Program-made: the position numbers and the translations under genes | Notes under the pieces: model-generated | Told to the model about the DNA's origin: nothing | Database searches by the model: none | What the model saw: the letters and a program-made list of their open reading frames with translations, nothing else | Source: an uncultured Bacilli bacterium | GTDB lineage: Bacteria; Bacillota_I; Bacilli_A; RF39; UBA660 | Direction of reading: 5' to 3' | DNA: 61,893 nt | Assembly: GCA_947628785.1 (NCBI GenBank) | Contig: CANRBE010000001.1 | Span: forward strand, 1 to 61,893 | Part shown: piece after piece, positions 1-53,454 of the stretch | How the letters are laid out: every line of letters begins with the position of its first letter | Numbering within the stretch: the first letter of the stretch is position 1

Positions 1-61
1 ATTCTATTAAGGTAAATCCTTTTACCTTATCTGTAAATAATACCCCCCCCCATATTGACAT
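1..61 (-). CDS. type IV pilin-like protein, paralog of 51386..52576; only the first 20 codons are inside the window
   Basis: nt 2-118 are a near-exact copy of 52517-52633. The minus-strand ATG at 61 gives MSIWGGVLFTDKVKGFTLIE, identical to the leader and mature N-terminus of the downstream pilin gene. The body lies left of the window. Confidence 0.6.
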   Translation of the reverse strand, partial: MSIWGGVLFTDKVKGFTLIE

Positions 62-98
62 TCTCTTTACACATATTCTTCCTACCTTTCTAGTTATT

Positions 99-127
99 AT
101 ATTATCATAAATTAATATGAATGACAA
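99..127 (-). promoter_or_regulatory. putative sigma-A type promoter of the edge pilin paralog
   Basis: Minus strand: -35 TTGTCA (127..122), 17-nt spacer, extended -10 TGaTAATAT (-10 hexamer 104..99). Confidence 0.4.
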
Positions 128-4089: not shown

Positions 4090-4860
4090 TTAATAAATTT
4101 TTAGTAAGTATTGGCTTAAAATATCAAAATTAAAACCTGTTAAAACAAATATAATAGCAGCTATAGCTAAGAAAGGACCAAAAGGTACTTCGTGATTAGA
4201 TTTTCTACTTACCATAATTAAAGCAATTGGTAGTCCTATTATCGATGCTACAAAAATACTTAAAATAGTCGTTAAAATTCCAAAAAACATTCCATAGATA
4301 AACATGAGTTTGATATCTCCACCACCCATGGATTCTTTTTTAAATAAGAAATCACCTATTTTTTTTATTCCCCACATTAATAAAAAGCAAACAACTCCTG
4401 ATAAAACCGACTTACCTAAACCAAGTAAACCACTTTTTATTCCAATTAAAATTGCTAATAAAAATATGGTTACTATAAGCACTTCATCAGGTATAATCAT
4501 AGTTTGATAATCACTTATTATTATTATTAATAACATCGAAATAAAAGTCAAACTGATAAACAAATCAATTGTAATTCCAAATTTCAAATAACATAAACAA
4601 AATAGGACCCCTGTCAATGCTTCAAACAAGCAATAGAAAGGGGATATTTTTTGTTTACAATTTTTACATTTTCTACCTTGAATTAAATAAGATACAATAG
4701 GTATTAATTCAATAGGTGTTAAATAATGATTACAATTAGGACAGTGACTAGCTGGACTTACTATCGACTCTCCTCTTGGTAAACGCCAAGCTACTACGTT
4801 GTAAAAAGAGCCTAAAACAGTTCCAAAGATAAAGAACACCACGGCATAATATACTGTCAT
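4090..4860 (-). CDS. prepilin peptidase (A24 family, PilD/ComC-like)
   Basis: Polytopic membrane protein with N-terminal CPNC...CKNC zinc-binding pairs and a GGGDIKLM active-site motif. Immediately downstream of the PilC-like gene. Confidence 0.9.
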   Translation of the reverse strand: MTVYYAVVFFIFGTVLGSFYNVVAWRLPRGESIVSPASHCPNCNHYLTPIELIPIVSYLIQGRKCKNCKQKISPFYCLFEALTGVLFCLCYLKFGITIDLFISLTFISMLLIIIISDYQTMIIPDEVLIVTIFLLAILIGIKSGLLGLGKSVLSGVVCFLLMWGIKKIGDFLFKKESMGGGDIKLMFIYGMFFGILTTILSIFVASIIGLPIALIMVSRKSNHEVPFGPFLAIAAIIFVLTGFNFDILSQYLLKIY

Positions 4861-4870
4861 AAAATCCCCC

Positions 4871-7150
4871 CTATTGCATGTTTTGAACAGATTGATATAA
4901 GTTAAACATTGGAATAATAACCGCTAAAATAATTACACCAACTACTACCGTTAAAAATATTGTAAGAATTGGTTCAATAAAGGTTTTTATTCTTGTAACA
5001 TTTGTTTTTTCAAGACTTTGATAATATGCTGATACTTTAGATAACATATCTGGTAACTCACCTGTTGCTTCACCAGTACAAATCATTTCATAAGCAGGAA
5101 TTGGGAATGCCCAGTTACCTTCAAACGCATCAGATATTTTACCACCTTTAGCTAGGTTTGATACAACATCTAAAATCATCATTTTATATATTTCATTGCT
5201 AGTTATTTTGTTTAATATTTCAAGACACTCTGGTATTGGAACATTGTGGGCAAGTAAAGAACTAAATGTTTTAGTAAAAGTTGCCACTTCACTATATATC
5301 ATTGTATCACCAATTGCTGGTATATGCATAACAACCCATTGATTAAGAGTTCTAAAAAATCTGTTCTTTTTATATAATAATAACCAAATAGCTATTATTA
5401 AGACTATAACAATAACCATAGTAATTATATTATTTTGTAAGAAGAAACTAACACTCATAACTAATTTAGTAAAGCTTGGTATCTCAGTTCCATCCATAGT
5501 ATTATATATATCTACAAATCGAGGTACAACAAACATTAAAATGAAAGTTATAACACCTAATGCAAATATTCCGACAATAGTTGGATAAGTCATAGCTGTT
5601 ACAAATTGTCTTCTTGTTTCTTCTATTTCGGTATAATAATCAACCATATCATCTAATACTTCTGGTAATTCACCAGTCATTTCAGCTGTTTTAACCATGT
5701 TAATTAACAATTTTGGAAACGCAACATTTTGTTTTTCTAAAGCTGTTGAAAAATTTTCACCCATTGTTAATTCATAGATAATTGAACGGAATATTTTTTC
5801 GTATTTTTTCTGTTTTACAAATTGCCTTGATAATATTCTTAAAGATTCAACTAAGGTAATACCAGCTTTTAAATAGGTTGATAATTGAGCTAAGAAGAAT
5901 ATTAAATCTTTGCTTTTAAATTTTACTTTATTGACATCAGACCCACCATGAAGTAAGGTTATCCATTTATTAGTTTTAATACTATATACTTCATATCCTT
6001 CACTTAACAAGAATGAATGGACTTCAACTCTTGAATAAGCTTCAAAGTATCCTTTAACAAATTTTCCTTCTTTGTTTTTAGCTTCGTATTCATAAACTAA
6101 TTTAACGTCACTTTTCTTAGCTTCATCACCTTCAAAATCGATAAGTAAAGCTTGTCTATTTATATCTCGTCTATTTCGAGCATTTTTAATAAAACTGTTA
6201 TTTAAGAATACTCCCGCTATTTTTTTAGGTATTTTATTAAATTCTTTTAGTTTGTCAGATAATACAGCAAAGGTATTTGGTTTTTCTTTTTCAATATCTT
6301 CATTGATATATGCTTCTTGATTTTTTTCTCGAGCTTCTTTTAAAGCTTTCTTATGGTCAAGTTTTTCTTGTTTTTTTCTTTCTTTAGCTTGTTTCTTTTC
6401 TTCAATCTTACGTTGTTTTTCTTTTTTTCTTTCTTCAGCTGACATAGCTTTTCGTTTGATTTTTTCTTCTTCACTACGATTACGATTTCTAATTTTTTCT
6501 ATTTTTTGTTGTTTTTTAAGTTCTAGTTTTTCAGCTTGTTTAGCTTTCTTTGCTTCTATAGCTTGAATTCTTTTTTGTCTTGCTTCTTCTTTTTTTGCTC
6601 TTTTCTCTTCTAAAGCTATTTGTTTTTGACGTTTTTTCTCTTCTTGTTCTGGGGTTAGTTTTTTCTTTTGTTTTTTAAGTTCTAATTGTTTAGCTTTTCT
6701 TTCTTTTCTGGCTTGAATTCTTTTTTGCCTTGCCTCTTCTTTTTTAGCTTTCTTCTCTTCTATTTCTTTAAGTTTCTTTTGTCTTGCTTCTTCTTTTTTA
6801 GCCTTTTTTTCTTCTAAAGCTTTAAGTTTTTTTTGTTTGGCTTCTTCCTTAAGCATTGCTTGATGTTCTAATTTAGCCTTCTTTTGTTCTTCTTTTAAAG
6901 ATAACAAAGCCGGTTCCGTTTTCACTGAACCTGTTATATTTTCATTCATTTTGCCTTTTTTCTTATGTTTTGCTTCTATTTTTAATTGTTTTTGGTTTGG
7001 AATTTGTTTATTAGTATTTGATCCTTTTGGGTTTATTAATAAGAAAAGGAATTGAAAAGGAATTGATATTATAAATAATAATCCTTTTGCAATATACTTA
7101 AATGTTCTATAAATTAAAATACAAATTCCTAAAAACAATCTTTGTATCAT
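4871..7150 (-). CDS. type II secretion / type IV pilus platform protein (GspF/PilC family) with a ~340-aa N-terminal membrane anchor plus Lys/Glu-rich extension
   Basis: The C-terminal ~415 aa show the duplicated GspF architecture (LAQLSTYLKAGITLVESL..., 3 TM segments). The N-terminal third is a KKAKKEEARQK-type repeat region. Confidence 0.85.
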   Translation of the reverse strand: MIQRLFLGICILIYRTFKYIAKGLLFIISIPFQFLFLLINPKGSNTNKQIPNQKQLKIEAKHKKKGKMNENITGSVKTEPALLSLKEEQKKAKLEHQAMLKEEAKQKKLKALEEKKAKKEEARQKKLKEIEEKKAKKEEARQKRIQARKERKAKQLELKKQKKKLTPEQEEKKRQKQIALEEKRAKKEEARQKRIQAIEAKKAKQAEKLELKKQQKIEKIRNRNRSEEEKIKRKAMSAEERKKEKQRKIEEKKQAKERKKQEKLDHKKALKEAREKNQEAYINEDIEKEKPNTFAVLSDKLKEFNKIPKKIAGVFLNNSFIKNARNRRDINRQALLIDFEGDEAKKSDVKLVYEYEAKNKEGKFVKGYFEAYSRVEVHSFLLSEGYEVYSIKTNKWITLLHGGSDVNKVKFKSKDLIFFLAQLSTYLKAGITLVESLRILSRQFVKQKKYEKIFRSIIYELTMGENFSTALEKQNVAFPKLLINMVKTAEMTGELPEVLDDMVDYYTEIEETRRQFVTAMTYPTIVGIFALGVITFILMFVVPRFVDIYNTMDGTEIPSFTKLVMSVSFFLQNNIITMVIVIVLIIAIWLLLYKKNRFFRTLNQWVVMHIPAIGDTMIYSEVATFTKTFSSLLAHNVPIPECLEILNKITSNEIYKMMILDVVSNLAKGGKISDAFEGNWAFPIPAYEMICTGEATGELPDMLSKVSAYYQSLEKTNVTRIKTFIEPILTIFLTVVVGVIILAVIIPMFNLYQSVQNMQ

Positions 7151-7267
7151 TTAATACACCTTCCAATCTCCTCTACTATTCTAGACTAAAAAGATTATAA
7201 CATATTTTTGATTTTTTTAAAACATTTTTTGCATATTTCATATAATATTTTAGAAAGGAGTTGTTAT

Positions 7268-7630
7268 ATGAACTTTTATAATCCTTATTTTTACAGTAAT
7301 CCAATTACTAATGCAGCCACTTCTAACTTGACACGTCCTGGACTATTTCGGTCTTTATTTTCTAGAGGTTTAGGTAATTTTTCTTTGGCAAATTTATTAA
7401 ATGGTGCCCAAAGAACTTTAAATGTCGCTAACCAAAGTATTAATCTGGTAAGACAAGTTCATCCTATGATTAACAATGCTAAAACAATGTTCAAAGTAAT
7501 GAATGAATTTAAAAAAGATGATAATGCTTCTTTAAAAAAACCAACTAATTTTGAAAATAAGGTCAGTACTAACGATAGTGAAGTTATCGAAACTCCTTCA
7601 AGTTTTAGTGGTCCTACTTTCTTTCAATAA
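7268..7630 (+). CDS. YqfQ/VrrA-like small protein
   Basis: AGGAG SD precedes the ATG at 7268; the ORF-track TTG at 7208 is rejected. The LLNGAQRTLNVANQSINLVRQVHPMINNAKTMFKVMNEFKK pattern resembles Bacillus YqfQ, from memory. Confidence 0.55.
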   Translation: MNFYNPYFYSNPITNAATSNLTRPGLFRSLFSRGLGNFSLANLLNGAQRTLNVANQSINLVRQVHPMINNAKTMFKVMNEFKKDDNASLKKPTNFENKVSTNDSEVIETPSSFSGPTFFQ

Positions 7631-7649: not shown

Positions 7650-7995
7650 AATTGGTTTCTTTAGCAATATCTCCTAAATATTTAAATACTTCATTGATGC
7701 CATTTGTTATGGTTTTAGATATTTTTTTAGATAAGTTTAGACCTAAATTGGATAAATCATTATCATAGCTAGGTAATTCATCTTTAACATATTCTTCAAC
7801 ATCGATATCTTTTCCTTCTTTTATATCTTGTTCAAATTTTTTTATTTCTTCGTCTGTTAAAGCTACTTTATCATGAATTTTATATTCATAATAACCTGTT
7901 GCTTGAGAAAAGTATAAAACGGTAAAACCAATAAAAATTATAATAAAAAGACGTTTAAAAAATTGATATATTTTTTTTCTTTTTTCTTTTTTCAT
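7648..7995 (-). CDS. small membrane protein, positional equivalent of YqxA (downstream of spoIIP)
   Basis: 115 aa with one N-terminal TM segment. The start overlaps the spoIIP stop (ATGA coupling). The YqxA assignment rests on position only. Confidence 0.6.
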   Translation of the reverse strand: MKKEKRKKIYQFFKRLFIIIFIGFTVLYFSQATGYYEYKIHDKVALTDEEIKKFEQDIKEGKDIDVEEYVKDELPSYDNDLSNLGLNLSKKISKTITNGINEVFKYLGDIAKETN

Positions 7996-8966
7996 AATTC
8001 CTCCAAGTATTGTTTTATTACATCACTTAAAGCTTCCATGGTATTGTATACTTCTAAAGTTGTGTTTTTATAACCACCACATTCAATTAAAATTATTTTT
8101 TCACTTAAATCTTGGTTATATATTCCATTGACATTTTTTCCTTTTTTCTTCATTATTCCTCTACTTAAACCAGGATATTTTTTATTTATTAATTCATTTA
8201 GTTTTTCTGATAATTTCAAGTTTTTTTCAAAGTTTTTATGTTCTTGTCCAATTACAAAAAGAACTTTTGCATAATTTTTTTTATCGATAGTAATGGTACT
8301 ACTTTTTTTTGGTATAGCATCTCTATGGATATCAATTAATAAATCTAAGTTTTGATATTTATTTAAGGCATCTTTAATAAAATAACTACTAGCTTTATAA
8401 CTGTTTTGATAATTCCAACCTTGACTATTTAAAAATGTCGTCATATCTGATGTTTCTACTACGGTAGTTATTTGTTTTTTATTTAGGTTTTCCCTTAACA
8501 TATATGAAGCCATCATAACATTAGGAGTTATATTATACTCTTCCAAATTTTCTTTACTATATCCTTCTAATTGATGAGTATTATATAAATATACTCTCGG
8601 ATTATCTTGTGTTTCTGGTTTAGGGTCATCAATATATTCTGTTGATTTTGATACTAAGTTTAAATCACTTGCGGTATCTATTTTTTCATGATAAAAGTTT
8701 TCAAGTAAATATGAGGGTTGTTTATTTATTAATGTTTTTAAATTGGTTTTTACTTTAGTCATTAATGAAGTAGGTTTTTTTTCTAAAATATAATTTTGTT
8801 GTTCTAATAATTGTTTAACAAATTCTTGATTAGAACTTGCTAGTTTTATTTTATTTATTGATGTATATAAAAAATATATTATAAAAAGTATTATACATAG
8901 TATTATTATTTTAAATACCAAAGGAAAAAAATATATTCTTTTTCTTGGAACAAACTTTTTGGCCAC
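7992..8966 (-). CDS. spoIIP: stage II sporulation protein P (SpoIIP-type cell wall amidase/endopeptidase)
   Basis: N-terminal TM, then LIDIHRD...VLFVIGQEHKNFEKNL...YPGLSRGI...GIYNQDLS...ILIECGG, the characteristic SpoIIP motifs. Confidence 0.85.
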   Translation of the reverse strand: MAKKFVPRKRIYFFPLVFKIIILCIILFIIYFLYTSINKIKLASSNQEFVKQLLEQQNYILEKKPTSLMTKVKTNLKTLINKQPSYLLENFYHEKIDTASDLNLVSKSTEYIDDPKPETQDNPRVYLYNTHQLEGYSKENLEEYNITPNVMMASYMLRENLNKKQITTVVETSDMTTFLNSQGWNYQNSYKASSYFIKDALNKYQNLDLLIDIHRDAIPKKSSTITIDKKNYAKVLFVIGQEHKNFEKNLKLSEKLNELINKKYPGLSRGIMKKKGKNVNGIYNQDLSEKIILIECGGYKNTTLEVYNTMEALSDVIKQYLEEL

Positions 8967-9035: not shown

Positions 9036-9059
9036 AAAAAAAAGAATACTTATGTATTC
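9036..9059 (-). terminator. intrinsic terminator at the left end of module copy A
   Basis: Minus strand GAATAC-ATAA-GTATTC followed by T8. Conserved in copy B (50798..50819). Confidence 0.55.
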
Positions 9060-9177
9060 TATAAAAAAAACTAGTTTAGTTATTTTATTTTTATGGTTTA
9101 ATTTATACTGATATTTTTTTACTTAATAATGTTTTAAAATCTGTCGAATTAAGTCGAACGTTTTTTCATATTTTTTA

Positions 9178-9207
9178 TTGACTTTTTTTATTATTATATG
9201 TTAGTAT
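9178..9207 (+). promoter_or_regulatory. possible promoter for the plus-strand small-ORF transcript
   Basis: -35 TTGACT (9178-9183), 18-nt spacer (19 in copy B), TGtTAGTAT extended -10 (9202-9207). The spacer is longer than optimal. Confidence 0.35.
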
Positions 9208-9294
9208 ATCTTACTGAGACGTACTTTACTTTCAAGGGGTTTTCGGTATTTTCCCTTTTTATTTTAATTTTAAGATAGAAAGGTGATGATGCTT

Positions 9295-9402
9295 ATGAAA
9301 ATTTATTTTATAAGCTTTAATAAATATTATAAAACATCAAGATTTAACATCTTAGACTTTATTCTATTTATCATCAATGTTTACTTCAAAATAAAAAGAT
9401 AA
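9295..9402 (+). CDS. 35-aa aromatic/hydrophobic peptide MKIYFISFNKYYKTSRFNILDFILFIINVYFKIKR (candidate type I toxin-like peptide)
   Basis: AGAAAGGTGAT SD lies 7 nt before the ATG. The ORF and SD are 100% identical in copy B (51046..51153). Below the ORF-track length cutoff. Confidence 0.5.
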   Translation: MKIYFISFNKYYKTSRFNILDFILFIINVYFKIKR

Positions 9403-9404
9403 AC

Positions 9405-47550: not shown

Positions 47551-47580
47551 AAACATCAGTTTATCTGATGTTTCTTTTTT
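47551..47580. terminator. terminator after tRNA-Arg, overlapping the 3' end of the convergent TPR gene
   Basis: AAACATCAG-TTTAT-CTGATGTTT followed by CTTTTTTT. The stop codon of 47561..49744 lies in the loop. Confidence 0.6.
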
Positions 47581-49744
47581 TATAAAGAGTTTTGTTTCTT
47601 TTAATATCTTCATACAGATATTTCACATATTTAGATTTATTATGAATTTTTTCAATTTTTTTCATAAAACTTTCAGCTTTAACATCAATTCCTAATTGAT
47701 AATATTTTTTAGCTAATTCAATTAAAACTACTACTCTTTTATCATTGTCTAAATTTAGTGTTTCAAAAACATCTAAAATATTATTTCCATTCTCTTCTAA
47801 AGCTAAAATTTCATCTAAATTATCTACTTGATATTTTTCTAAATTATCATCTAACGGTTTTTTTAAATAAGTATTTTCTACATTTCTAGTACTTTTTAAT
47901 TTTTCAATTAAGTTAGTATAATCATAACCTGTATTTTCATCTTTACTCAAACTAGTTGCGACTGTTAAATAATTAGCTGAAACTTCATATTTTTCACATT
48001 TTAAATAAGCTAAACCTATTTTAGAATAAACAAGACTTAATTCTTTACCACTTTCTAATACTTTCCTATAATACTTAATACTTTTTTCATATTCTTCATT
48101 ATCAAAAGCTTGTTTTCCTAAATGAAGCATTTCTTTAATATCGATTAGTTCATAATTATAAGGATTAAATTTTAAAATAATTTGATTTTCTATCTCAAAA
48201 ATTTTAAAACCGTTATTTTTTTCTAATAATTTATATATATCATTTTTATTTTGGTTACTAGTAGGATTTATTAAAGAAACTCCATAATCAGTAGCTTCTT
48301 CTAGTTTTTTATCAATTAGTTTTTTTAAATTAGCTTGATAAGAGATTAACTCATATTCTTGCCTACTATCTTCTAAAACTTGTTTCAAACTATTTTTAAA
48401 AATACAATCAAATCCAAGTTTATTAATATTATTAATAATATCTAAATAAAGACTAGCTTCTTCATAATGATTTAAAACTATTTTTTCATAAAAACTTTGA
48501 AGATAATTTGATAAATTAAAAGTAAAAGTTCCATTTTTAATTGAAGATAAAGTATCAATAATTAAAGTGTAATTATTATTTTCTAATAAACTGATTTTCA
48601 ATAAATAATCAACTAAAAATTCATATTCAAGTTTTTCATATTTTTTTAATAATTCTTTTATTTTAACTAAAGCTTCTTTAATATTATCATCTCTTAATTT
48701 ATTGATAATAACTAAAATTTCTTTATCGATATTTTCTTCTAAAGAATCAGTTTTAATTTCATCTTCTTTTATACTATTAATTTCTTTTATAATATCATTT
48801 AAAATAATTTTAAAACATTCCTTATTTTTATCATATATTTTAGCATTATCAAGTAACGATAAAGCATATTCATAATCTCTACTTTCAATAGCTTTAAAAA
48901 ACTGATTAGTAGTAATACCTTGACTTTCTAAAATTTGTTTATTATTTTTTATAGTTAATAAGTCTTTAACTAGTTTTAAAATATAGTATAATGATTTCAA
49001 TAACTGATGTCTTTTTTGGATATTAGAAAGTAAATCAACTACCTTATCATATTCTTTATTTTGAACTAATTTTAAAACTTCCAAGTGAGTTTCTATTTGT
49101 TTCATTTTAGCTTGATAAAGTAATTTATCAAGTAAAACATCTTGTCCGTTTTTTTTATCTTTATTGCTTACATATAACTGATGTTTTTTTAAAGCCAAGT
49201 TAAATTTTTGATTACTAATTAAAAATCTTATTTCATTTAAAATATGATTGTTATCAACATTTTTTACTTTAAAATAATTATAATTTATATTTTTTGATAA
49301 CAATTTAAATTTTTCTGGTACATCAGTTATCATATTAAGTAAAAATAAATATAAATTACAGTCATCTTTAAAATAATTAGTTTCATTTTCAAACATTTTT
49401 TCTAAACATTTGAAAGCTTTATCATAATTTTTTTTATCGATATTTCTAAGAAAAATTTGAAGCAATATTTTAGGATCATCAGGAGCTAGCTCTAAGGTTT
49501 TTTCTAAAAACCATTCAGCTTTATCAAATTGTTTTTTAGAAATTAATTGCATACTAAAAAGATAAAGACCTCTAGTTGTTATTATTTTATAAAATCCATT
49601 ATTAGTTTCTAGTAATATTTTAGTATTAAGCATATAGTTTAATTCACTATCATCAAAACCTAAAGATTTTATATCTTCTAATGATAATTCATCTTGATAA
49701 AATAAACTGTTATAAAGGATGTTTAATTTTTTATCGGAAACCAT
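47561..49744 (-). CDS. large TPR-repeat protein (727 aa)
   Basis: Repeated 34-aa helical-pair patterns (e.g. FDKAEWFLEKTLELAPDDPK, YEKSIKYYRKVLESGKE). Its start lies 1 nt after the stop of the upstream TPR gene. Confidence 0.75.
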   Translation of the reverse strand: MVSDKKLNILYNSLFYQDELSLEDIKSLGFDDSELNYMLNTKILLETNNGFYKIITTRGLYLFSMQLISKKQFDKAEWFLEKTLELAPDDPKILLQIFLRNIDKKNYDKAFKCLEKMFENETNYFKDDCNLYLFLLNMITDVPEKFKLLSKNINYNYFKVKNVDNNHILNEIRFLISNQKFNLALKKHQLYVSNKDKKNGQDVLLDKLLYQAKMKQIETHLEVLKLVQNKEYDKVVDLLSNIQKRHQLLKSLYYILKLVKDLLTIKNNKQILESQGITTNQFFKAIESRDYEYALSLLDNAKIYDKNKECFKIILNDIIKEINSIKEDEIKTDSLEENIDKEILVIINKLRDDNIKEALVKIKELLKKYEKLEYEFLVDYLLKISLLENNNYTLIIDTLSSIKNGTFTFNLSNYLQSFYEKIVLNHYEEASLYLDIINNINKLGFDCIFKNSLKQVLEDSRQEYELISYQANLKKLIDKKLEEATDYGVSLINPTSNQNKNDIYKLLEKNNGFKIFEIENQIILKFNPYNYELIDIKEMLHLGKQAFDNEEYEKSIKYYRKVLESGKELSLVYSKIGLAYLKCEKYEVSANYLTVATSLSKDENTGYDYTNLIEKLKSTRNVENTYLKKPLDDNLEKYQVDNLDEILALEENGNNILDVFETLNLDNDKRVVVLIELAKKYYQLGIDVKAESFMKKIEKIHNKSKYVKYLYEDIKRNKTLYKKRNIR

Positions 49745-49745
49745 T

Positions 49746-50726
49746 TTACCACCTATTTCTTTTTTTGGTTAATTCTTTACTATAAATAATATTTTCTCTA
49801 TCAAATTGATTAGAAAGTGATACTGGATACATTGTCACTATTTTTTTGGTATTAAAAACTGTCATTACACATAAATCACTAGTTACTTTTTCTTCTTTAA
49901 AACCAATTGGATTATCTAATCTAAAACGATACATATCTAAAAGTTCAAAGTGATTTGGGTTCATATTTTCTATTGTTTTATGAGCTATATCTACGATTTT
50001 TTTTAAATCGATATATTTAAAGAAACAACCTTCCGTATCTTTATTTTGTTGATTAATATGATTACTGATATGGCTTAATAGGGTATCATCACTATCATCA
50101 TATAAACGATGAATTAAATAGTTATTTAAAATATCATTTTTATTGTTATTTTTCAAAGTAAAATATTTTAATAAGTATTTTAAGTTATTAAAGGTATTTA
50201 TAACATTACCTCTTAAATCACAATTGCTTAATTTTTGTAATAAATAATAACTTTCATCATATTTTTTTTCGATAATATTTATTAAAATAAGATTAATTAA
50301 AGCAATAGCTTGATATTTTTCCTCATATTTTAAAGTTTCAAACATTTTTCTTCCTATTTCATTATCCCCTGTTTGAATATTTAATCTAGCTAGTTCTAAT
50401 AAAATTTTATTTTGATTTTTATATGTATTCATACATAATTGATAATATTTTTTAGCACTTTCAAAATTACTTTCAATAGTCTCAAGTAGTCCATAAGACA
50501 TGTTTAAAAAATTAGAGTTTTCTTTATAATATTTTTCTAATAATTGTCTAGCCATATCATATTTACTTTCTTGAATATATATTTTGTTTAAATAAAATAT
50601 TGATTTTTCTTGATAATTAGGGTTTTCTAAAGTTTTTTGAAAATAAGGTTTAGCTTCACTAAACTCTTTAGAAATAAATAATTGTTTTGCTTTTAAAAAA
50701 AGTTGTTGATATTCATTGTTTTTCAT
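49746..50726 (-). CDS. TPR-repeat protein (326 aa)
   Basis: TPR-like repeats (FSEAKPYFQKTLENPNY...). The ORF-track TTG at 50783 is rejected in favour of the ATG at 50726 behind an AGGGGTGA SD. Confidence 0.75.
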   Translation of the reverse strand: MKNNEYQQLFLKAKQLFISKEFSEAKPYFQKTLENPNYQEKSIFYLNKIYIQESKYDMARQLLEKYYKENSNFLNMSYGLLETIESNFESAKKYYQLCMNTYKNQNKILLELARLNIQTGDNEIGRKMFETLKYEEKYQAIALINLILINIIEKKYDESYYLLQKLSNCDLRGNVINTFNNLKYLLKYFTLKNNNKNDILNNYLIHRLYDDSDDTLLSHISNHINQQNKDTEGCFFKYIDLKKIVDIAHKTIENMNPNHFELLDMYRFRLDNPIGFKEEKVTSDLCVMTVFNTKKIVTMYPVSLSNQFDRENIIYSKELTKKRNRW

Positions 50727-51045
50727 TTTTTCACCCCTTTTTTTATGAGTTAATATTGTAATCTTTTTTTTAATCAATGTCAATAAAAATTTTTATTAAA
50801 AAAGAATACTTATGTATTCAAACTAATTTAGTTATTTTATTTTTATGGTTTGATTTATACTGATATTTTTTACTTAATAAGGTTTTAAAATTTGTTGAAT
50901 TAAGTCGAACAATTTTTCGTATTTTTTTTGACTTTTTTTTATTATTATATGTTAGTATATCTTACTGAGACGTACTTTACTTTCAAGGGGTTTTTGGTAT
51001 TTTCCCTTTTTATTTTAATTTTAAGATAGAAAGGTGATGATGCTT

Positions 51046-51153
51046 ATGAAAATTTATTTTATAAGCTTTAATAAATATTATAAAACATCAAGATTTAACA
51101 TCTTAGACTTTATTCTATTTATCATCAATGTTTACTTCAAAATAAAAAGATAA
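51046..51153 (+). CDS. 35-aa peptide identical to that of 9295..9402
   Basis: Nucleotide-identical ORF and SD. Confidence 0.5.
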   Translation: MKIYFISFNKYYKTSRFNILDFILFIINVYFKIKR

Positions 51154-51155
51154 AC

Positions 51156-51257
51156 ATGAAAAACGCCGTTTTCCTATGAAAGCGGTGTTTTTCTTTAAAA
51201 ACAACTTTAAAGGGAAATACCACTAGGTATGTCTCTTTTTTATGAAGTTTCCTTCAC
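51156..51257 (-). ncRNA. predicted ~100-nt convergent sRNA, copy B
   Basis: Minus strand: -35 TTGTTA (51292..51287), 17-nt spacer, TATTAT (51269..51264). Hairpin at 51158..51193 plus a T run. Confidence 0.4.
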
Positions 51258-51385
51258 GCTTTAATAATATCATATTTTTTTTGTTTTAACAAGTATTAGA
51301 TTGTTAGAATATATAGAAATGCTTAATTAAACCGCGTTCATGTTACTGAATACCAGTAACATGACTTATTTTTATTTTGCTTCGT

Positions 51386-52576
51386 TTATGATACTTCTAA
51401 TTCATATTCATCTCCTATTGCTCCTGAGCCTGTTCCTAGTTTGACATCACTTTTAAGAACTACGACTGGGCGCACTCCATACGAACTGGCGTTGGCGCCC
51501 CAGCTACTGTTGCTTGGATACCAAGCATACAAGTTGTAAGTGTTGTTAGCAGAGGCCAGCCAGTAGTAGCTACCAATATTTATTAGTTCTGTATTTCCTC
51601 CACAGTATGAACTTGTATTGTTATAACAGTTTCCTCTTTCATTTTTTTCTAAGTAGTCCCATAAACTATAATCTTCATTTCCGTTTTCTTCATAGTTTAT
51701 TATATTTACATCATCACTATCCATGTAATGGACACTTAAGGCATATGTACTATTTCCATATTTTGTCCAGGCTTTTCCTTCTCCTTCATTACTAGCTGAT
51801 GTTGCTCTTACTTTTAGTATTTCTTTACTGGCTATACTTTGTCCTGATACATAATAGTAACATTCTGGGGTTCCTCCATGAATTAATGTAATTTGTCCAT
51901 TACTATCAACATCCATTATTCGCCAACCACTATATTTCGTTGTATATGAGTCATTATAACATGTGATACTCTCATTCTTACTTTTTCCATTGATCGAACT
52001 ACTTGTAACTTCATCATAGATATTGAATGTTCTTGAAGTTTTACCTTTTGTTTCTCTTACTCCATCTCTTGTGGCATTCCAGGTGGCATTATCTGGACTA
52101 TATTTTACATATTTTCCTATATCATTTTTTATAGCCTTTCTTGGTGGCACATATTCTTTTCCTGTCCATACTCCATTTAAATAATTAAATACATATCCAT
52201 TTATTAATAAGCCTGTTATACTCTCTACATCTCCATCTTTTGTAAACTGAACTGTTCCCTTACTTGGTAAACTTCCATCTATTTCTAAATTTAAGACTTT
52301 ATCTCCACAGGTTAATTTATCTTTTAAGGCGCTACAACTTTCTTTTATCGTCTTATTTTTTCCCATCATATGAAACAAATGAGCTTTTTCTGATGCCTCC
52401 TTATATTCCATGGCACTACTTTTAGCTCCTTCATATTTTGCTTTTTCAATTAAATTTAATATAGTTGGTGTTACTATTAAAGCTATTATAGAAAGTATTA
52501 CTATAACCGCTAATAGTTCTATTAAGGTAAATCCTTTTACCTTATCTGTAAATAATACCCCCCCCCATATTGACAT
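51386..52576 (-). CDS. type IV pilin-like protein with large C-terminal lectin-like domain
   Basis: Leader MSIWGGVLFTDKVKG then FTLIELLAVIVILSIIALIV (class III signal, Glu at +5). C-terminal YWLASA...GVRPVVVL motif. The ORF-track TTG at 52642 is rejected. Confidence 0.8.
   Translation of the reverse strand: MSIWGGVLFTDKVKGFTLIELLAVIVILSIIALIVTPTILNLIEKAKYEGAKSSAMEYKEASEKAHLFHMMGKNKTIKESCSALKDKLTCGDKVLNLEIDGSLPSKGTVQFTKDGDVESITGLLINGYVFNYLNGVWTGKEYVPPRKAIKNDIGKYVKYSPDNATWNATRDGVRETKGKTSRTFNIYDEVTSSSINGKSKNESITCYNDSYTTKYSGWRIMDVDSNGQITLIHGGTPECYYYVSGQSIASKEILKVRATSASNEGEGKAWTKYGNSTYALSVHYMDSDDVNIINYEENGNEDYSLWDYLEKNERGNCYNNTSSYCGGNTELINIGSYYWLASANNTYNLYAWYPSNSSWGANASSYGVRPVVVLKSDVKLGTGSGAIGDEYELEVS
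52558..52566 (-). repeat. G9 homopolymer (C9 on plus strand) within the pilin leader codons
   Basis: Encodes the W-G-G of MSIWGG. An identical C9 lies at 43..51 in the edge paralog. Confidence 0.95.
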
Positions 52577-52613
52577 TCTCTTTACACATATTCTTCCTAC
52601 CTTTCTAGTTATT

Positions 52614-52642
52614 ATATTATCATAAATTATTATCCTTAACAA
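52614..52642 (-). promoter_or_regulatory. putative sigma-A promoter of the pilin gene
   Basis: Minus strand: -35 TTGTTA (52642..52637), 17-nt spacer, TGaTAATAT (hexamer 52619..52614). Confidence 0.45.
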
Positions 52643-52643
52643 G

Positions 52644-52673
52644 CAAAAAATAAAAGAACTTAATTTAGTTCTT
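52644..52673 (-). terminator. intrinsic terminator of sigG
   Basis: Minus strand AAGAACT-AAATTA-AGTTCTT followed by TTATTTTTT, 8 nt after the stop. Confidence 0.6.
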
Positions 52674-52680
52674 AAAAAAC

Positions 52681-53454
52681 TTACTTCATCATTTTCTTTA
52701 TCGATTCAAGCCCACTTTTTTCAAGCCGTGATATTTGAGCTTGGCTTATACCTATTTCTTTAGCCAATTCTAATTGAGTTTTCCCAACAAAATATCTTGA
52801 TTTCAAAATATACCTTTCCTTTTCTTTTAAATTTTTTAAAGCTTCTTTCAAAGCTAATCTAGTATCTAAAGAAAAAGGTGAATCCTTGCTTTCTAATTGG
52901 TCAGCTAAATAAATAGTATCTCCCCCATCATTATAAATTGGCTCATACATACTAATAGTATCTTTCATTGCGTCTAAAGCATTAGCTATTTCAAATTCAG
53001 TATAACCTAATTTATCCGCAAGCATTTTAATACTTGGTTCTTTCCCTAAATCATTAGTTAACTGTTCTTTTAATTTAATCGCTTTATAAGCAATATCTTT
53101 AATACTTCTAACTACTCTAATACTACTATTATCCCTTAAATATCTTCTCACTTCACCTACAATCATCGGTACAGCATAAGTTGAAAATTTCACTTCATGG
53201 GAAAGGTCAAAATTATCGATAGCTTTAATCAAACCAATACACCCTACTTGAAATAAATCATCCATATTATCAGTTCGATTATTATACTTTTTCAAAATGG
53301 ACAAAACTAATTTCAAATTGCCATTAATTAATTCTTCCTTAGCTTTAACTAAACCATTTTGATATTGTTTAAACAAAATAGTCATCTCTTCATTAGTTAA
53401 AACTTTAATATTCGCAGTATTCACGCCACAAATATCTACTTTATGACGTGCCAT
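52681..53454 (-). CDS. sigG: sporulation sigma factor SigG
   Basis: ARHKVDICGVNTANIKVLTNEEM, FDLSHEVKFSTYAVPMIVGEVRRYLRDNSSIRV, EPIYNDGGDTIYLADQ and GISQAQISRLEK closely follow Bacillus SigG rather than SigF. Confidence 0.85.
   Translation of the reverse strand: MARHKVDICGVNTANIKVLTNEEMTILFKQYQNGLVKAKEELINGNLKLVLSILKKYNNRTDNMDDLFQVGCIGLIKAIDNFDLSHEVKFSTYAVPMIVGEVRRYLRDNSSIRVVRSIKDIAYKAIKLKEQLTNDLGKEPSIKMLADKLGYTEFEIANALDAMKDTISMYEPIYNDGGDTIYLADQLESKDSPFSLDTRLALKEALKNLKEKERYILKSRYFVGKTQLELAKEIGISQAQISRLEKSGLESIKKMMK

What the first reader, a model, noticed from the sequence alone, without database searches (positions are those of the whole stretch)
52558..52566. G9 tract inside the pilin leader: candidate slipped-strand phase-variation switch with two alternative starts
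The homopolymer encodes W-G-G in MSIWGGVLFTDKVKG|FTLIE. This is a 9-nt G run in DNA that otherwise almost lacks G/C runs, and it is duplicated exactly (C9 at 43-51) in the edge paralog. With G9, the ATG at 52576 is in frame. With G8 or G11, a second ATG at 52589 just after an AGGAAG SD comes into frame, giving MCKENVNMGGVLFTDKVKG|FTLIE. With G7 or G10, neither start reads the pilin. Length changes would therefore switch the protein off or change its leader. This is the logic known from poly-G tracts in Neisseria pilC/opa-type contingency genes and mycoplasma surface proteins.
Basis: partly seen in the sequence, partly recalled or inferred. Interest (0 to 1): 0.7.

Follow-up and report, generated by a model that had tools for sequence, protein, structure and literature searches.

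The report
Poly-G on/off switch in pilin gene
A run of nine G's at the very start of a pilin-like surface-protein gene of an uncultured, very AT-rich gut bacterium is most likely a slippage-prone on/off switch of a well-known kind, and related gut bacteria carry the same run, at different lengths, in front of many genes of this family.

Summary
G9 lies on the coding (-) strand at 52558-52566 and again at 43-51. These are the only G/C runs longer than 6 in a 24.6% GC contig, and they sit inside a 113-nt block that is identical between two pilin paralogues. G9 is in frame only with an ATG that has no Shine-Dalgarno sequence (SD) (MSIWGG...). G8/G11 is in frame with the SD-proximal ATG (MCKENVNMGG...). 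G7/G10 has no start.

Comparative data support slipped-strand phase variation. Homologous leader tracts in related gut MAGs and metagenomes range from G6 to G12, in in-frame and out-of-frame states. One orthologous locus from three metagenome assemblies differs almost only in the tract. Out-of-frame copies keep intact ~390-codon ORFs with dN/dS of 0.20-0.26. A prepilin peptidase and a PilC-like protein are on the same contig.

Caveats:
- All four copies of this exact lineage read G9.
- Read-level heterogeneity cannot be tested here.
- It is unclear whether G9 means low expression or off.

In relatives the tract also occurs in promoter spacers and in a short upstream ORF (uORF) followed by a terminator. 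Verdict: a new member of a known kind (Campylobacter/Neisseria-type poly-G contingency locus), in a new clade and gene family. Moderate interest.

The parts
52558..52566 (-). G9 homopolymer, the proposed slippage site, inside the leader-coding part of the pilin-like gene
43..51 (-). Identical G9 in a second pilin paralogue whose body runs off the contig start
52517..52629 (-). Shared 5' expression cassette, from the extended -10 through SD, mini-leader, G9 and G|FTLIE. It is 113 nt and identical to window 2..114. It is 97-100% identical in paralogues L005 and L006, although the flanks are unrelated and the coding body drops to 53-83% identity.
2..114 (-). Edge copy of the same 5' cassette. The contig ends in it, probably an assembly break at a multi-copy repeat.
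52611..52622 (-). Extended -10-like promoter element TGATAATATAAT, with no recognisable -35. Identity between the paralogues begins a few bases upstream of it, at 52629. Related cassettes have TGTATAAT or TGATATAAT at the same place.
   Evidence: read directly; not reported by the consensus scan, which requires a -35
52593..52598 (-). Shine-Dalgarno-like AGGAAG, with 3 nt (AAT) between it and the ATG at 52589
52587..52589 (-). ATG1, the SD-proximal start. It is in frame with the pilin only at G8/G11 (also G5), giving MCKENVNMGGVLFTDKVKG|FTLIE. At G9 it opens a 15-codon uORF, MCKENVNMGGGIIYR*, at 52542-52589.
52574..52576 (-). ATG2, a start without a usable SD. It is in frame at G6/G9/G12 (MSIWGG...). 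This is the start used for the 396-aa protein on record, which is identical to the window's ORF.
52566..52568 (-). ATG3, which abuts the tract and is in the same frame as ATG1. An ATG directly followed by the G run recurs in several related lineages.
52517..52534 (-). GFTLIE prepilin cleavage/methylation motif. Predicted cleavage is between G (52532-52534) and F (52529-52531).
   Evidence: PF07963 31.7 bits (cutoff 21.2); TIGR02532 29.5 bits (cutoff 16.3)
51386..52576 (-). Pilin-like gene, 396 aa as called. It has a long N-terminal alpha1 helix, a small beta domain and a ~250-aa C-terminal domain ending in the GVRPVVVLK motif.
52654..52673 (-). AT-rich hairpin followed by a T-rich stretch after the upstream SigG-like gene. 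It probably separates that gene from the pilin cassette.
   Evidence: I11
4090..4860 (-). Prepilin peptidase (Peptidase A24), the enzyme needed to remove whichever leader is made
4871..7150 (-). PilC/GspF-like platform protein, 759 aa, with a ~350-aa N-terminal extension

Best explanation
The G9 run is a hypermutable simple-sequence repeat. It puts a type IV pilin-like surface protein under stochastic, heritable and reversible control by slipped-strand mispairing during DNA replication.

The run sits between the ribosome-binding site with its start codon and the prepilin cleavage site. Gaining or losing one G therefore decides whether translation from the SD-proximal ATG (52589) reads into the pilin.
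- G8/G11: on, with leader MCKENVNMGG(G)VLFTDKVKG.
- G9: in frame only with an SD-less ATG (52576). This is off or weakly on, with leader MSIWGG...
- G7/G10: fully off.

The leader is removed by the prepilin peptidase encoded on the same contig, so the mature protein is the same whichever start is used.

The tract is part of a ~113-150-nt 5' cassette (extended -10 promoter, SD, mini-leader, poly-G). Several pilin paralogues of this organism share the cassette, and homologous cassettes occur in related uncultured gut Bacilli. The family therefore behaves as a set of independently switchable surface proteins.

Shown: the tract, the frames, the cassette, length polymorphism among homologous loci, and purifying selection on out-of-frame alleles. 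Inferred: the mutational mechanism, reversibility, and expression levels.
For: - The tract is far beyond chance and goes against codon usage.
- The frame table is as stated.
- Length varies among homologous leaders. Lineage 2 (one rabbit-gut MAG plus a metagenome contig) has G9, G9, G9 out of frame and G8 in frame. Lineage 3 has G11, G10 x4, G7 x2, G6 and an interrupted GGTG6. Other low-GC contigs have G12, G10, G8 and G7. L149 has G10 and no in-frame start.
- One locus from three independent assemblies is 98-100% identical over ~1 kb. In 181 nt it differs only at the tract and one SNP.
- Out-of-frame copies L001-L003 have no stop in ~390 codons, with pairwise dN/dS 0.20-0.26 at dS ~0.37.
- The shift needed to restore the frame is +1 in some copies and -1 in others, and in-frame alleles exist. 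This fits a random walk rather than one programmed shift.
- In 464 kb around pilin genes of related MAGs, all 21 G/C runs of 7 or more are G on the strand to which the pilin-family match was oriented. Of these, 18 lie 48-242 nt upstream of, or inside the 5' coding end of, a pilin-like or related gene; the other three (L192) lie downstream of the nearest pilin motif.
- A modal length of 9, with G8 biased to insertions and G11 to deletions, is documented for Campylobacter jejuni poly-G tracts (PMC3401435). This matches the G9/G10 mode seen here.
- A prepilin peptidase and a PilC-like protein are on the contig.
- No inverted repeats flank the promoter, so an invertible switch is unlikely.
Against: - All four copies of the window's own lineage read G9 (window x2, L005, L006).
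- A search for the predicted G8 product (MCKENVNMGG...) found no such protein in 5.8 billion sequences.
- Because the cassette is identical between paralogues, an assembler may give every copy the majority length. The per-copy length is therefore not fully reliable.
- No reads are available, so heterogeneity within one population is not shown for any locus.
- The orthologous locus in another sample (L203) has an interrupted tract of the same total length (GGGGGGAGG). There the pilin is in frame with ATG2, not ATG1. This could mean that the G9 frame is the functional one, and that this lineage depends less on switching. That contig has 1.9x coverage and a later frameshift.
Confidence: 0.8

Rival explanations
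1. The tract is a fixed coding feature in this lineage. G9 is the functional, stable state, the protein starts at ATG 52576 (MSIWGG...), and the run is an inherited remnant of the family's cassette that no longer switches at a meaningful rate.
For: Four of four copies of this lineage are G9 and in frame with ATG2. The ortholog L203 keeps the same 9-nt length and the same ATG2 frame with an interrupted run. No G8-type product was found.
Against: ATG2 has no usable SD, while a good SD sits in front of the out-of-frame ATG1. GGG-GGG is otherwise never used in this contig. Homologous tracts elsewhere clearly vary and break frames. The identical length in all copies may come from gene conversion or from assembly collapse of a 113-nt identical repeat. 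L203 is low coverage and frameshifted further on.
Confidence: 0.1
2. Recoding at the RNA level. RNA polymerase slippage or ribosomal +1/-1 frameshifting on the G run (rare GGG codons) constitutively yields a fraction of in-frame product from genomically out-of-frame genes, with no DNA change.
For: G9 recurs in many out-of-frame copies (L001-3, L127 x2, L192 x3). Their ORFs are under purifying selection. GGG is a rare codon here. From general knowledge, homopolymer runs of 9 or more are slippery for RNA polymerase.
Against: Programmed recoding sites keep one length and one direction. Here lengths run from 6 to 12, the required shift is +1 in some copies and -1 in others, and in-frame and interrupted alleles exist. 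Known efficient transcriptional slippage involves A/T runs (own knowledge). This mechanism may add leakiness on top of DNA-level switching, but it does not explain the DNA polymorphism.
Confidence: 0.07
3. Sequencing or assembly artefact: the homopolymer, or its length, is not real.
For: The contig ends inside the repeat. Some related contigs have low coverage (L203 at 1.9x, L006 at 2.6x).
Against: The same tract, at the same position in homologous cassettes, appears in assemblies from several unrelated sources: rabbit-gut MAGs, other gut-derived MAGs, and ENA and JGI contigs. It lies inside contigs with unique flanks, so it is not a read-end poly-G artefact.
Confidence: 0.03

Closest known systems
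Campylobacter jejuni poly-G/C contingency genes (phasome)
   Same: Both involve G/C homopolymers of ~8-11 nt in a very AT-rich genome. The tracts lie within the 5' coding region or promoter of surface-structure genes, the modal length is 9, and on/off switching is by frameshift (PMC3401435).
   Different: The organism is different: an uncultured, spore-forming, low-GC gut member of the class Bacilli. The gene class is different too: type IV pilin-like proteins rather than capsule, LOS or flagellar-modification enzymes. Here the tract is embedded in a conserved, multi-copy 5' cassette. Switching has not been measured.
Neisseria pilC1/pilC2 poly-G tract in the signal-peptide coding region
   Same: A poly-G run in the part of the gene that encodes the cleaved N-terminal leader of a pilus-associated protein. 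Frameshifts turn the protein on or off without altering the mature sequence (own knowledge, Jonsson et al. 1991; length variability of the pilC1 poly-G tract is noted in PMC5231331).
   Different: PilC is a Sec-dependent tip adhesin of a Gram-negative bacterium. Here the tract is in the class III (prepilin) leader of the pilin-like protein itself. A second start codon in another frame may give a third state.
Mycoplasma variable lipoprotein families (e.g. M. hyorhinis vlp)
   Same: A multigene family of surface proteins that share a highly conserved 5' region (promoter plus signal sequence) containing a homopolymer, with divergent 3' bodies. Each copy switches independently. The hosts are phylogenetically close, low-GC relatives. 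(Own knowledge.)
   Different: In vlp the poly-A tract lies in the promoter spacer and acts on transcription, and the products are lipoproteins. Here the tract is translational in the window. Promoter-spacer poly-G versions do occur in relatives.
Streptococcus gallolyticus Pil1 phase variation by leader-peptide repeats plus attenuation
   Same: Relatives of the window's cassette (L135, L141, L171, L176, L182, L163) have a short leader ORF carrying the repeat, followed by a terminator hairpin and then the pilin gene. Only one frame class lets the ribosome run into the hairpin. This is the logic described in PMC3894217.
   Different: That system uses GCAGA repeats and controls sortase pili. Here the repeat is poly-G and controls type IV pilin-like genes. 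The window's own locus lacks the terminator and fuses the leader directly to the pilin.

Membership tests
Simple-sequence-repeat (slipped-strand) phase-variable contingency locus | Homopolymer or short tandem repeat of mutable length (about 7 or more for G/C) in the 5' coding region or promoter | tested here: met
   G9 at 52558-52566 lies between the start codons and the cleavage site. It is the only kind of long G/C run in the contig.
Simple-sequence-repeat (slipped-strand) phase-variable contingency locus | Changes in repeat number move the gene in and out of frame | tested here: met
   In-silico frame table for G5-G13: G8/G11 uses the SD-proximal ATG, G9 uses the SD-less ATG, G7/G10 has no start.
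Simple-sequence-repeat (slipped-strand) phase-variable contingency locus | Repeat number differs between strains or populations at homologous loci while the flanks are conserved | tested here: inconclusive
   Met for related lineages: G6-G12 overall, and one locus from three assemblies differs only at the tract. Not met within the window's own lineage, where 4 of 4 copies are G9 and the ortholog L203 has G6AG2.
Simple-sequence-repeat (slipped-strand) phase-variable contingency locus | OFF alleles remain intact genes (reversible rather than decaying) | tested here: met
   L001-L003 are out of frame at the tract but have no stops in ~390 codons, with dN/dS 0.20-0.26.
Simple-sequence-repeat (slipped-strand) phase-variable contingency locus | Length heterogeneity within one population and measured, reversible switching | not testable with these tools
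   No reads or cultures are available; only consensus assemblies.
Simple-sequence-repeat (slipped-strand) phase-variable contingency locus | Reduced or absent mismatch repair that favours tract instability (typical, not obligatory) | not tested
   Only 62 kb of the genome is available. About half of the ORFs of 100 aa or more were scanned against Pfam. UvrA was found; no MutS or MutL was seen among those scanned.
Type IV pilin / prepilin-type (class III signal) protein | Leader ending in Gly, then F-T-L-I-E with Glu at +5, then a hydrophobic alpha1 segment | tested here: met
   ...KVKG|FTLIELLAVIVILSIIALIV. PF07963 scores 31.7 (cutoff 21.2) and TIGR02532 scores 29.5 (cutoff 16.3). The AF2 model has a helix at 18-73.
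Type IV pilin / prepilin-type (class III signal) protein | Cognate prepilin peptidase and assembly platform in the genome | tested here: met
   Peptidase A24 at 4090-4860 and a PilC/GspF-like protein at 4871-7150. No assembly ATPase was seen among the window ORFs that were scanned.
Type IV pilin / prepilin-type (class III signal) protein | Assembly into a filament (major pilin) rather than use of the pilin N-terminus to display an adhesin domain | not testable with these tools
   The mature protein is ~381 aa with a ~250-aa C-terminal domain. That domain shows only weak fold similarity to the Legionella Lcl C-terminal domain and to a T. ramosa IgA peptidase.
Programmed recoding site (transcriptional slippage or ribosomal frameshift) | Conserved out-of-frame arrangement with fixed tract length and a single required shift direction | tested here: not met
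   Lengths range from 6 to 12. The required shift is +1 in L001 and -1 in L002, L003, L127 and L192. In-frame alleles exist (L004, L056, L113, L057).
Invertible-promoter (inverton) phase variation | Inverted repeats flanking the promoter | tested here: not met
   Only short, AT-rich, low-identity inverted repeats lie around 52300-52900.

The most novel reading that the evidence does not exclude
The poly-G run may be the core of a portable expression module: extended -10 promoter, AAAGGTAG Shine-Dalgarno, mini-ORF, then Gn. A clade of uncultured low-GC gut Bacilli would then have wired this module to a large family of pilin-anchored adhesin-like genes in three ways: in the promoter spacer, fused to the prepilin leader, or as a leader ORF that runs into a terminator. 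In the fused form seen in the window, start codons in two frames would make it a three-state switch (high, low, off) rather than a binary one. That would amount to a Campylobacter-like phasome dedicated to type IV pilin-like surface proteins in commensals that have never been cultured.
Probability: 0.3. Interest if true: 0.7.

Novelty: new member of a known kind. Interest (0 to 1): 0.55.

Why it matters
Phase variation through poly-G tracts is a classic feature of a few well-studied pathogens such as Campylobacter, Neisseria and Helicobacter. I found no paper describing it for type IV pilin-like proteins of the small-genome, uncultured gut Bacilli (MAGs labelled 'uncultured Bacilli/Tenericutes') that are common in animal and human guts.

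If the switch is real, three things follow:
- These commensals diversify their surface stochastically, with many independently switchable pilin-anchored proteins. This bears on colonisation, immune and phage evasion, and strain tracking.
- Gene callers truncate such genes or give them wrong starts, for example 'MIELL...' products or SD-less starts. Annotation pipelines and MAG-based pangenomes should treat these tracts explicitly.
- Read-level tract-length profiles in existing metagenomes would give a direct, culture-free readout of phase states in vivo.

Tried and rejected
- Chance or codon-usage explanation: rejected.
- Invertible promoter: no flanking inverted repeats.
- Known RNA element at or near the locus: Rfam gives only three tRNAs elsewhere in the window, and nothing for the region downstream of the pilin gene.
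- Pseudogene decay of out-of-frame copies: rejected by intact ORFs and dN/dS of 0.2-0.26.
- Directional bias of out-of-frame states, which would hint at a programmed shift. The raw count is about 16 copies one G too long against about 4 one G too short. After collapsing non-independent paralogues this falls to roughly 6 against 5, so there is no bias.
- Enrichment of a second-frame ATG as support for a designed three-state switch. In this base composition an ATG upstream in another frame is not clearly beyond chance, so this remains only a possibility.
- Search for the predicted G8 product in the protein database: none found. The search did recover the ortholog L203 with an interrupted tract.
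- Look-up of the window's own protein to name the assembly: not on record, so the exact organism name is unknown.
- Consensus promoter scan: it does not report the cassette promoter because there is no -35. The extended -10 was read by eye and by conservation.
- PDB fold search of the AF2 model: only weak hits, so no function is assigned to the C-terminal domain.
Full report
OBSERVATION

On the - strand the window reads ...AGAAAGGTAGGAAGAATATGTGTAAAGAGAATGTCAATATGGGGGGGGGTATTATTTACAGATAAGGTAAAAGGATTTACCTTAATAGAA.... The G9 occupies 52558-52566, which is C9 on the + strand. A second C9 is at 43-51.

The window is 24.6% G+C. The only other G/C runs of 6 or more are three C6 runs. The expected number of runs of 9 or more is 2.5e-3 for C and 3e-5 for G. 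GGG accounts for 6.3% of 876 glycine codons in the window's ORFs. Among 52 Gly-Gly pairs, the only GGG-GGG is the tract itself. The run is therefore maintained at the nucleotide level, not because the protein needs Gly-Gly.

The edge copy belongs to an exact 113-nt repeat, window 2..114 = 52517..52629. The repeat starts a few bases upstream of an extended -10-like element and ends after the GFTLIE codons. Base 1 already differs, by a synonymous change. The protein search returned a 396-aa protein 100% identical to the window's ORF, whose longest contig is 61,893 bases. The window is therefore very probably a whole contig, and it ends inside this repeat.

WHAT THE GENE IS

ORF 51386-52576 (-) carries the prepilin-type N-terminal cleavage/methylation motif. 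PF07963 scores 31.7 bits against a cutoff of 21.2, and TIGR02532 scores 29.5 against 16.3.

An AlphaFold2 model built on 22 homologues has mean pLDDT 86. It shows the long alpha1 helix (residues 18-73), a small beta domain (81-141) and a ~250-residue C-terminal domain. The C-terminal domain gave only weak PDB matches: a Thomasclavelia ramosa IgA peptidase at E = 1e-3, and the Legionella Lcl C-terminal domain.

The contig also encodes:
- a prepilin peptidase (4090-4860) and a PilC/GspF-like platform protein (4871-7150);
- ComEA, ComEC, SpoIIP and UvrA;
- a SigG-like sporulation sigma factor directly upstream of the pilin.

Related sequences come from gut MAGs labelled 'uncultured Bacilli', 'Tenericutes' or 'Mollicutes bacterium'. 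The record titles point to rabbit ('Lapin') and human (Hadza, Nepal) samples, among others. Many of these MAGs have several pilin-like paralogues.

FRAME LOGIC

I rebuilt the 5' region with G5 to G13.
- ATG1 (52589) follows AGGAAG, with 3 nt between them. ATG3 (52568) abuts the run. Both share one frame, which reads into the pilin at G5, G8 and G11.
- ATG2 (52576) has no usable Shine-Dalgarno sequence and is in frame at G6, G9 and G12.
- At G7, G10 and G13 no start codon reads the pilin.
- At the observed G9, ATG1 opens a 15-codon uORF, MCKENVNMGGGIIYR*.

COMPARATIVE EVIDENCE

(a) Same lineage. Two further paralogues from other samples (L005, L006) carry the same cassette at 97-100% identity. 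Their upstream flanks are unrelated, and their coding bodies drop to 53-83% identity. Both have G9.

(b) Second lineage (MAG GCA_947623815.1 plus one metagenome contig).
- Three paralogues have G9, and all three are out of frame with their SD-proximal ATG.
- Small indels next to the run mean that L001 would need G10, while L002 and L003 would need G8.
- The gene caller consequently started all three at 'MIELL...'.
- A fourth copy (L004) has G8 and is in frame, with leader MKDKSMYTERKFGGGILFTENKKG|FTLIE.
- A fifth paralogue (L007-L009) has a canonical short leader, MRKNYNG|FTLIE, and no tract.
- The three out-of-frame genes have no stops in ~390 codons. Their pairwise dN/dS is 0.20-0.26 at dS ~0.37. 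They are maintained genes, not pseudogenes.

(c) Metagenome scan. I searched for a G run of 6 or more located 8-38 nt upstream of GGATTTACNTTNATNGA. This recovered a third lineage with the same architecture (AGGTAGGAAAGATT-ATG-...-AATATG-Gn-...) and n = 11, 10 (x4), 7 (x2), 6 and an interrupted GGTG6. It also recovered other low-GC contigs with G12, G10, G8 and G7. Some are in frame with the SD-proximal ATG (L056, L057, L113) and most are not.
- L019, L109 and L057 are the same locus from three independent assemblies. They are 98-100% identical over 700 nt upstream and ~300 nt of coding sequence.
- In a 181-nt alignment they differ only at the tract (G10 / A+G7 / GG-T-G6) and at one SNP.
- This is the most direct evidence that the run mutates much faster than its surroundings.

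(d) Protein-based sample of GTDB species representatives, unbiased with respect to the tract. It returned 80 loci with 96 pilin N-termini.
- Most have canonical leaders and no run.
- All 21 G/C runs of 7 or more in the 464 kb are G on the strand to which the pilin-family match was oriented.
- Eighteen of the 21 lie 48-242 nt upstream of, or inside the 5' coding end of, a pilin-like or related gene. The other three, in L192, lie downstream of the nearest pilin motif.

Three architectures appear in these relatives:
- Promoter spacer next to the -10, for example TTGGCA-9 nt-G10-TATAAT in L174.
- Inside the leader or signal-peptide coding region. L149 has G10 and no in-frame start. L127 x2 and L192 x3 are a non-pilin signal-anchor version with a related C-terminal domain. 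They all have G9, are in frame only with an SD-less TTG abutting the run, and are in frame with the SD-proximal ATG at G8. This is the same three-state logic as in the window.
- A short uORF (MVKDV..NLxWGG) that contains the run and is followed by a terminator hairpin, upstream of a pilin gene with its own start. Only one of the three frames lets the ribosome enter the hairpin.

The uORF cassette is visibly homologous to the window's cassette (TATAAT..AAAGGTAG..ATG-KTT-AAA-GA..Gn..TTATTT).

INTERPRETATION

These features are the standard signature of a slipped-strand contingency locus:
- an improbable homopolymer;
- its position between start and cleavage site;
- length polymorphism confined to the run;
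- a mixture of in-frame and out-of-frame alleles;
- selection maintaining the out-of-frame alleles;
- a multi-copy family of surface proteins.

The G9/G10 mode matches the behaviour of Campylobacter jejuni poly-G tracts. There the modal length is nine, G8 mutates mainly by insertion and G11 mainly by deletion (PMC3401435).

The leader is cleaved off, so switching changes the amount of protein and not the mature protein.

The steps I infer but cannot show are the mutational mechanism itself, its reversibility, and the expression level of each state.

OPEN POINTS

First, all four copies of the window's own lineage are G9. This may reflect any of three things:
- the mutational mode;
- gene conversion of the cassette;
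- an assembler assigning the majority length to every copy of a 113-nt identical repeat.

Second, it is unclear whether G9 is 'off' or 'low'. ATG2 lacks an SD and lies inside the ATG1 uORF, which argues for off or low. However, the orthologous locus in another sample (L203, SigG-like gene upstream, ~80% nucleotide identity) has an interrupted run of the same total length (GGGGGGAGG), with the pilin in frame with ATG2 (MSSWGEVLFTDNTLG|FTLIE). That contig has 1.9x coverage and a frameshift further on. It is therefore either a decaying locked allele or a low-quality sequence.

Third, RNA-level slippage on the run may add leakiness. It cannot explain the DNA polymorphism, the variable direction of the required shift, or the in-frame alleles.

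COMPARISON WITH KNOWN SYSTEMS AND NOVELTY

The mechanism is that of Campylobacter, Neisseria or Helicobacter poly-G contingency genes. The placement in a cleaved leader of a pilus protein recalls Neisseria pilC (own knowledge). The conserved 5' cassette on a divergent multigene family recalls Mycoplasma vlp genes (own knowledge). The uORF-plus-terminator form in relatives matches the attenuation-type pilus phase variation of Streptococcus gallolyticus (PMC3894217).

I found no paper describing poly-G control of type IV pilin-like genes in gut Bacilli. The finding is therefore a new member of a known kind. It is ordinary in mechanism and new in host clade and gene family. The clade-wide, three-architecture pattern adds some interest.

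VERDICT

- Observation: confirmed.
- Interpretation: supported by comparative evidence, but not proven at the population level.
- Confidence in slipped-strand phase variation: 0.8.
- Interest: 0.55.

Noticed in passing
window 50790-51310 and 9038-9555 (both read on the - strand): A ~510-nt noncoding repeat, 94% identical, with no ORF longer than 39 aa. One copy lies just downstream of the pilin gene and the other just upstream of spoIIP; in relative L001 a pilin gene sits upstream of spoIIP. The repeat begins with an extended -10-like ATATGATATTAT. There is no Rfam match and no copy in any fetched locus. It could be an unknown RNA or a remnant.
   Followed up: partly
L135, L141, L171, L176, L182, L163 (related gut MAGs), 140-240 nt upstream of pilin genes: A promoter (TGTATAAT), an SD and a short uORF (MVKDV..NLxWGG) that contains G7-G9, followed by a strong terminator hairpin (-22 to -28 kcal/mol). 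In two frames the uORF stops 4-16 nt after the run. In the third frame it reads into the hairpin. L176 (G9) is in that frame and the others are not. This fits attenuation-type phase variation as in S. gallolyticus Pil1 (PMC3894217).
   Followed up: partly
L174 ~2998, L130 ~96, L189 ~1831, L154 ~2947 and ~4800, L172 ~2941 and ~4164, L164: Poly-G runs (G6-G10) lie directly upstream of the -10 hexamer of pilin gene promoters in related MAGs, for example TTGGCA-9 nt-G10-TATAAT. These are candidate promoter-spacer phase variation.
   Followed up: partly
L127 2781 and 3726; L192 3712, 4666 and 6479 (MAG Lapin-026__bin41): Tandem arrays of genes matched through the window pilin's C-terminal domain, but with an ordinary signal-anchor N-terminus (MKEKIRLGGGYLLIILILLVV). 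Every copy has G9 right after MKEKIRL and is out of frame with the SD-proximal ATG (the copy at 6479 is cut by the locus end and was not run through that frame analysis). So the tract is not tied to the prepilin leader as such.
   Followed up: partly
L203 1501-1847 (ERZ27249368, coverage 1.9x): The orthologous locus, with a SigG-like gene upstream, in a diverged strain. The tract is interrupted (GGGGGGAGG), the pilin is in frame with the SD-less ATG, and a 1-nt frameshift truncates it to 73 aa. It is either a locked and decaying allele or low-coverage error.
   Followed up: partly
window 51386-52576 (protein), residues ~150-396: The C-terminal ~250-aa domain ends in ...YGVRPVVVLK. Several homologues in the protein search carry PF19789, PF03382, Big_2, LRR_5 or a GH18 chitinase domain behind the same pilin N-terminus. 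This suggests that the pilin N-terminus serves as a general anchor or display module for diverse adhesin- or enzyme-like domains. The AF2 model is confident (pLDDT 86) but has no good PDB match.
   Followed up: partly
window 4871-7150: The PilC/GspF-like platform protein is 759 aa, and 914 aa in relative L001. It has a ~350-aa N-terminal region with no Pfam hit, which is unusually long for this family.
   Followed up: no
window 52681-53454, 7992-8966, 7208-7630: A SigG-like sigma factor (365 bits, just under the equivalog cutoff of 372), SpoIIP and a YqfQ-like protein are present in a 24.6% GC genome whose relatives are labelled Tenericutes/Mollicutes. This looks like a spore-forming member of the reduced-genome Bacilli.
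   Followed up: no
window, whole: There is strong strand asymmetry: C 15.3% against G 9.3% on the + strand. Of the 50 ORFs of 100 aa or more, 41 are on the - strand. The contig probably lies within one replichore.
   Followed up: no
window 47561-50783: Two large TPR-repeat proteins (727 and 345 aa) follow the pilin locus on the same strand. Their function is unknown and no link to the pilin is established.
   Followed up: no
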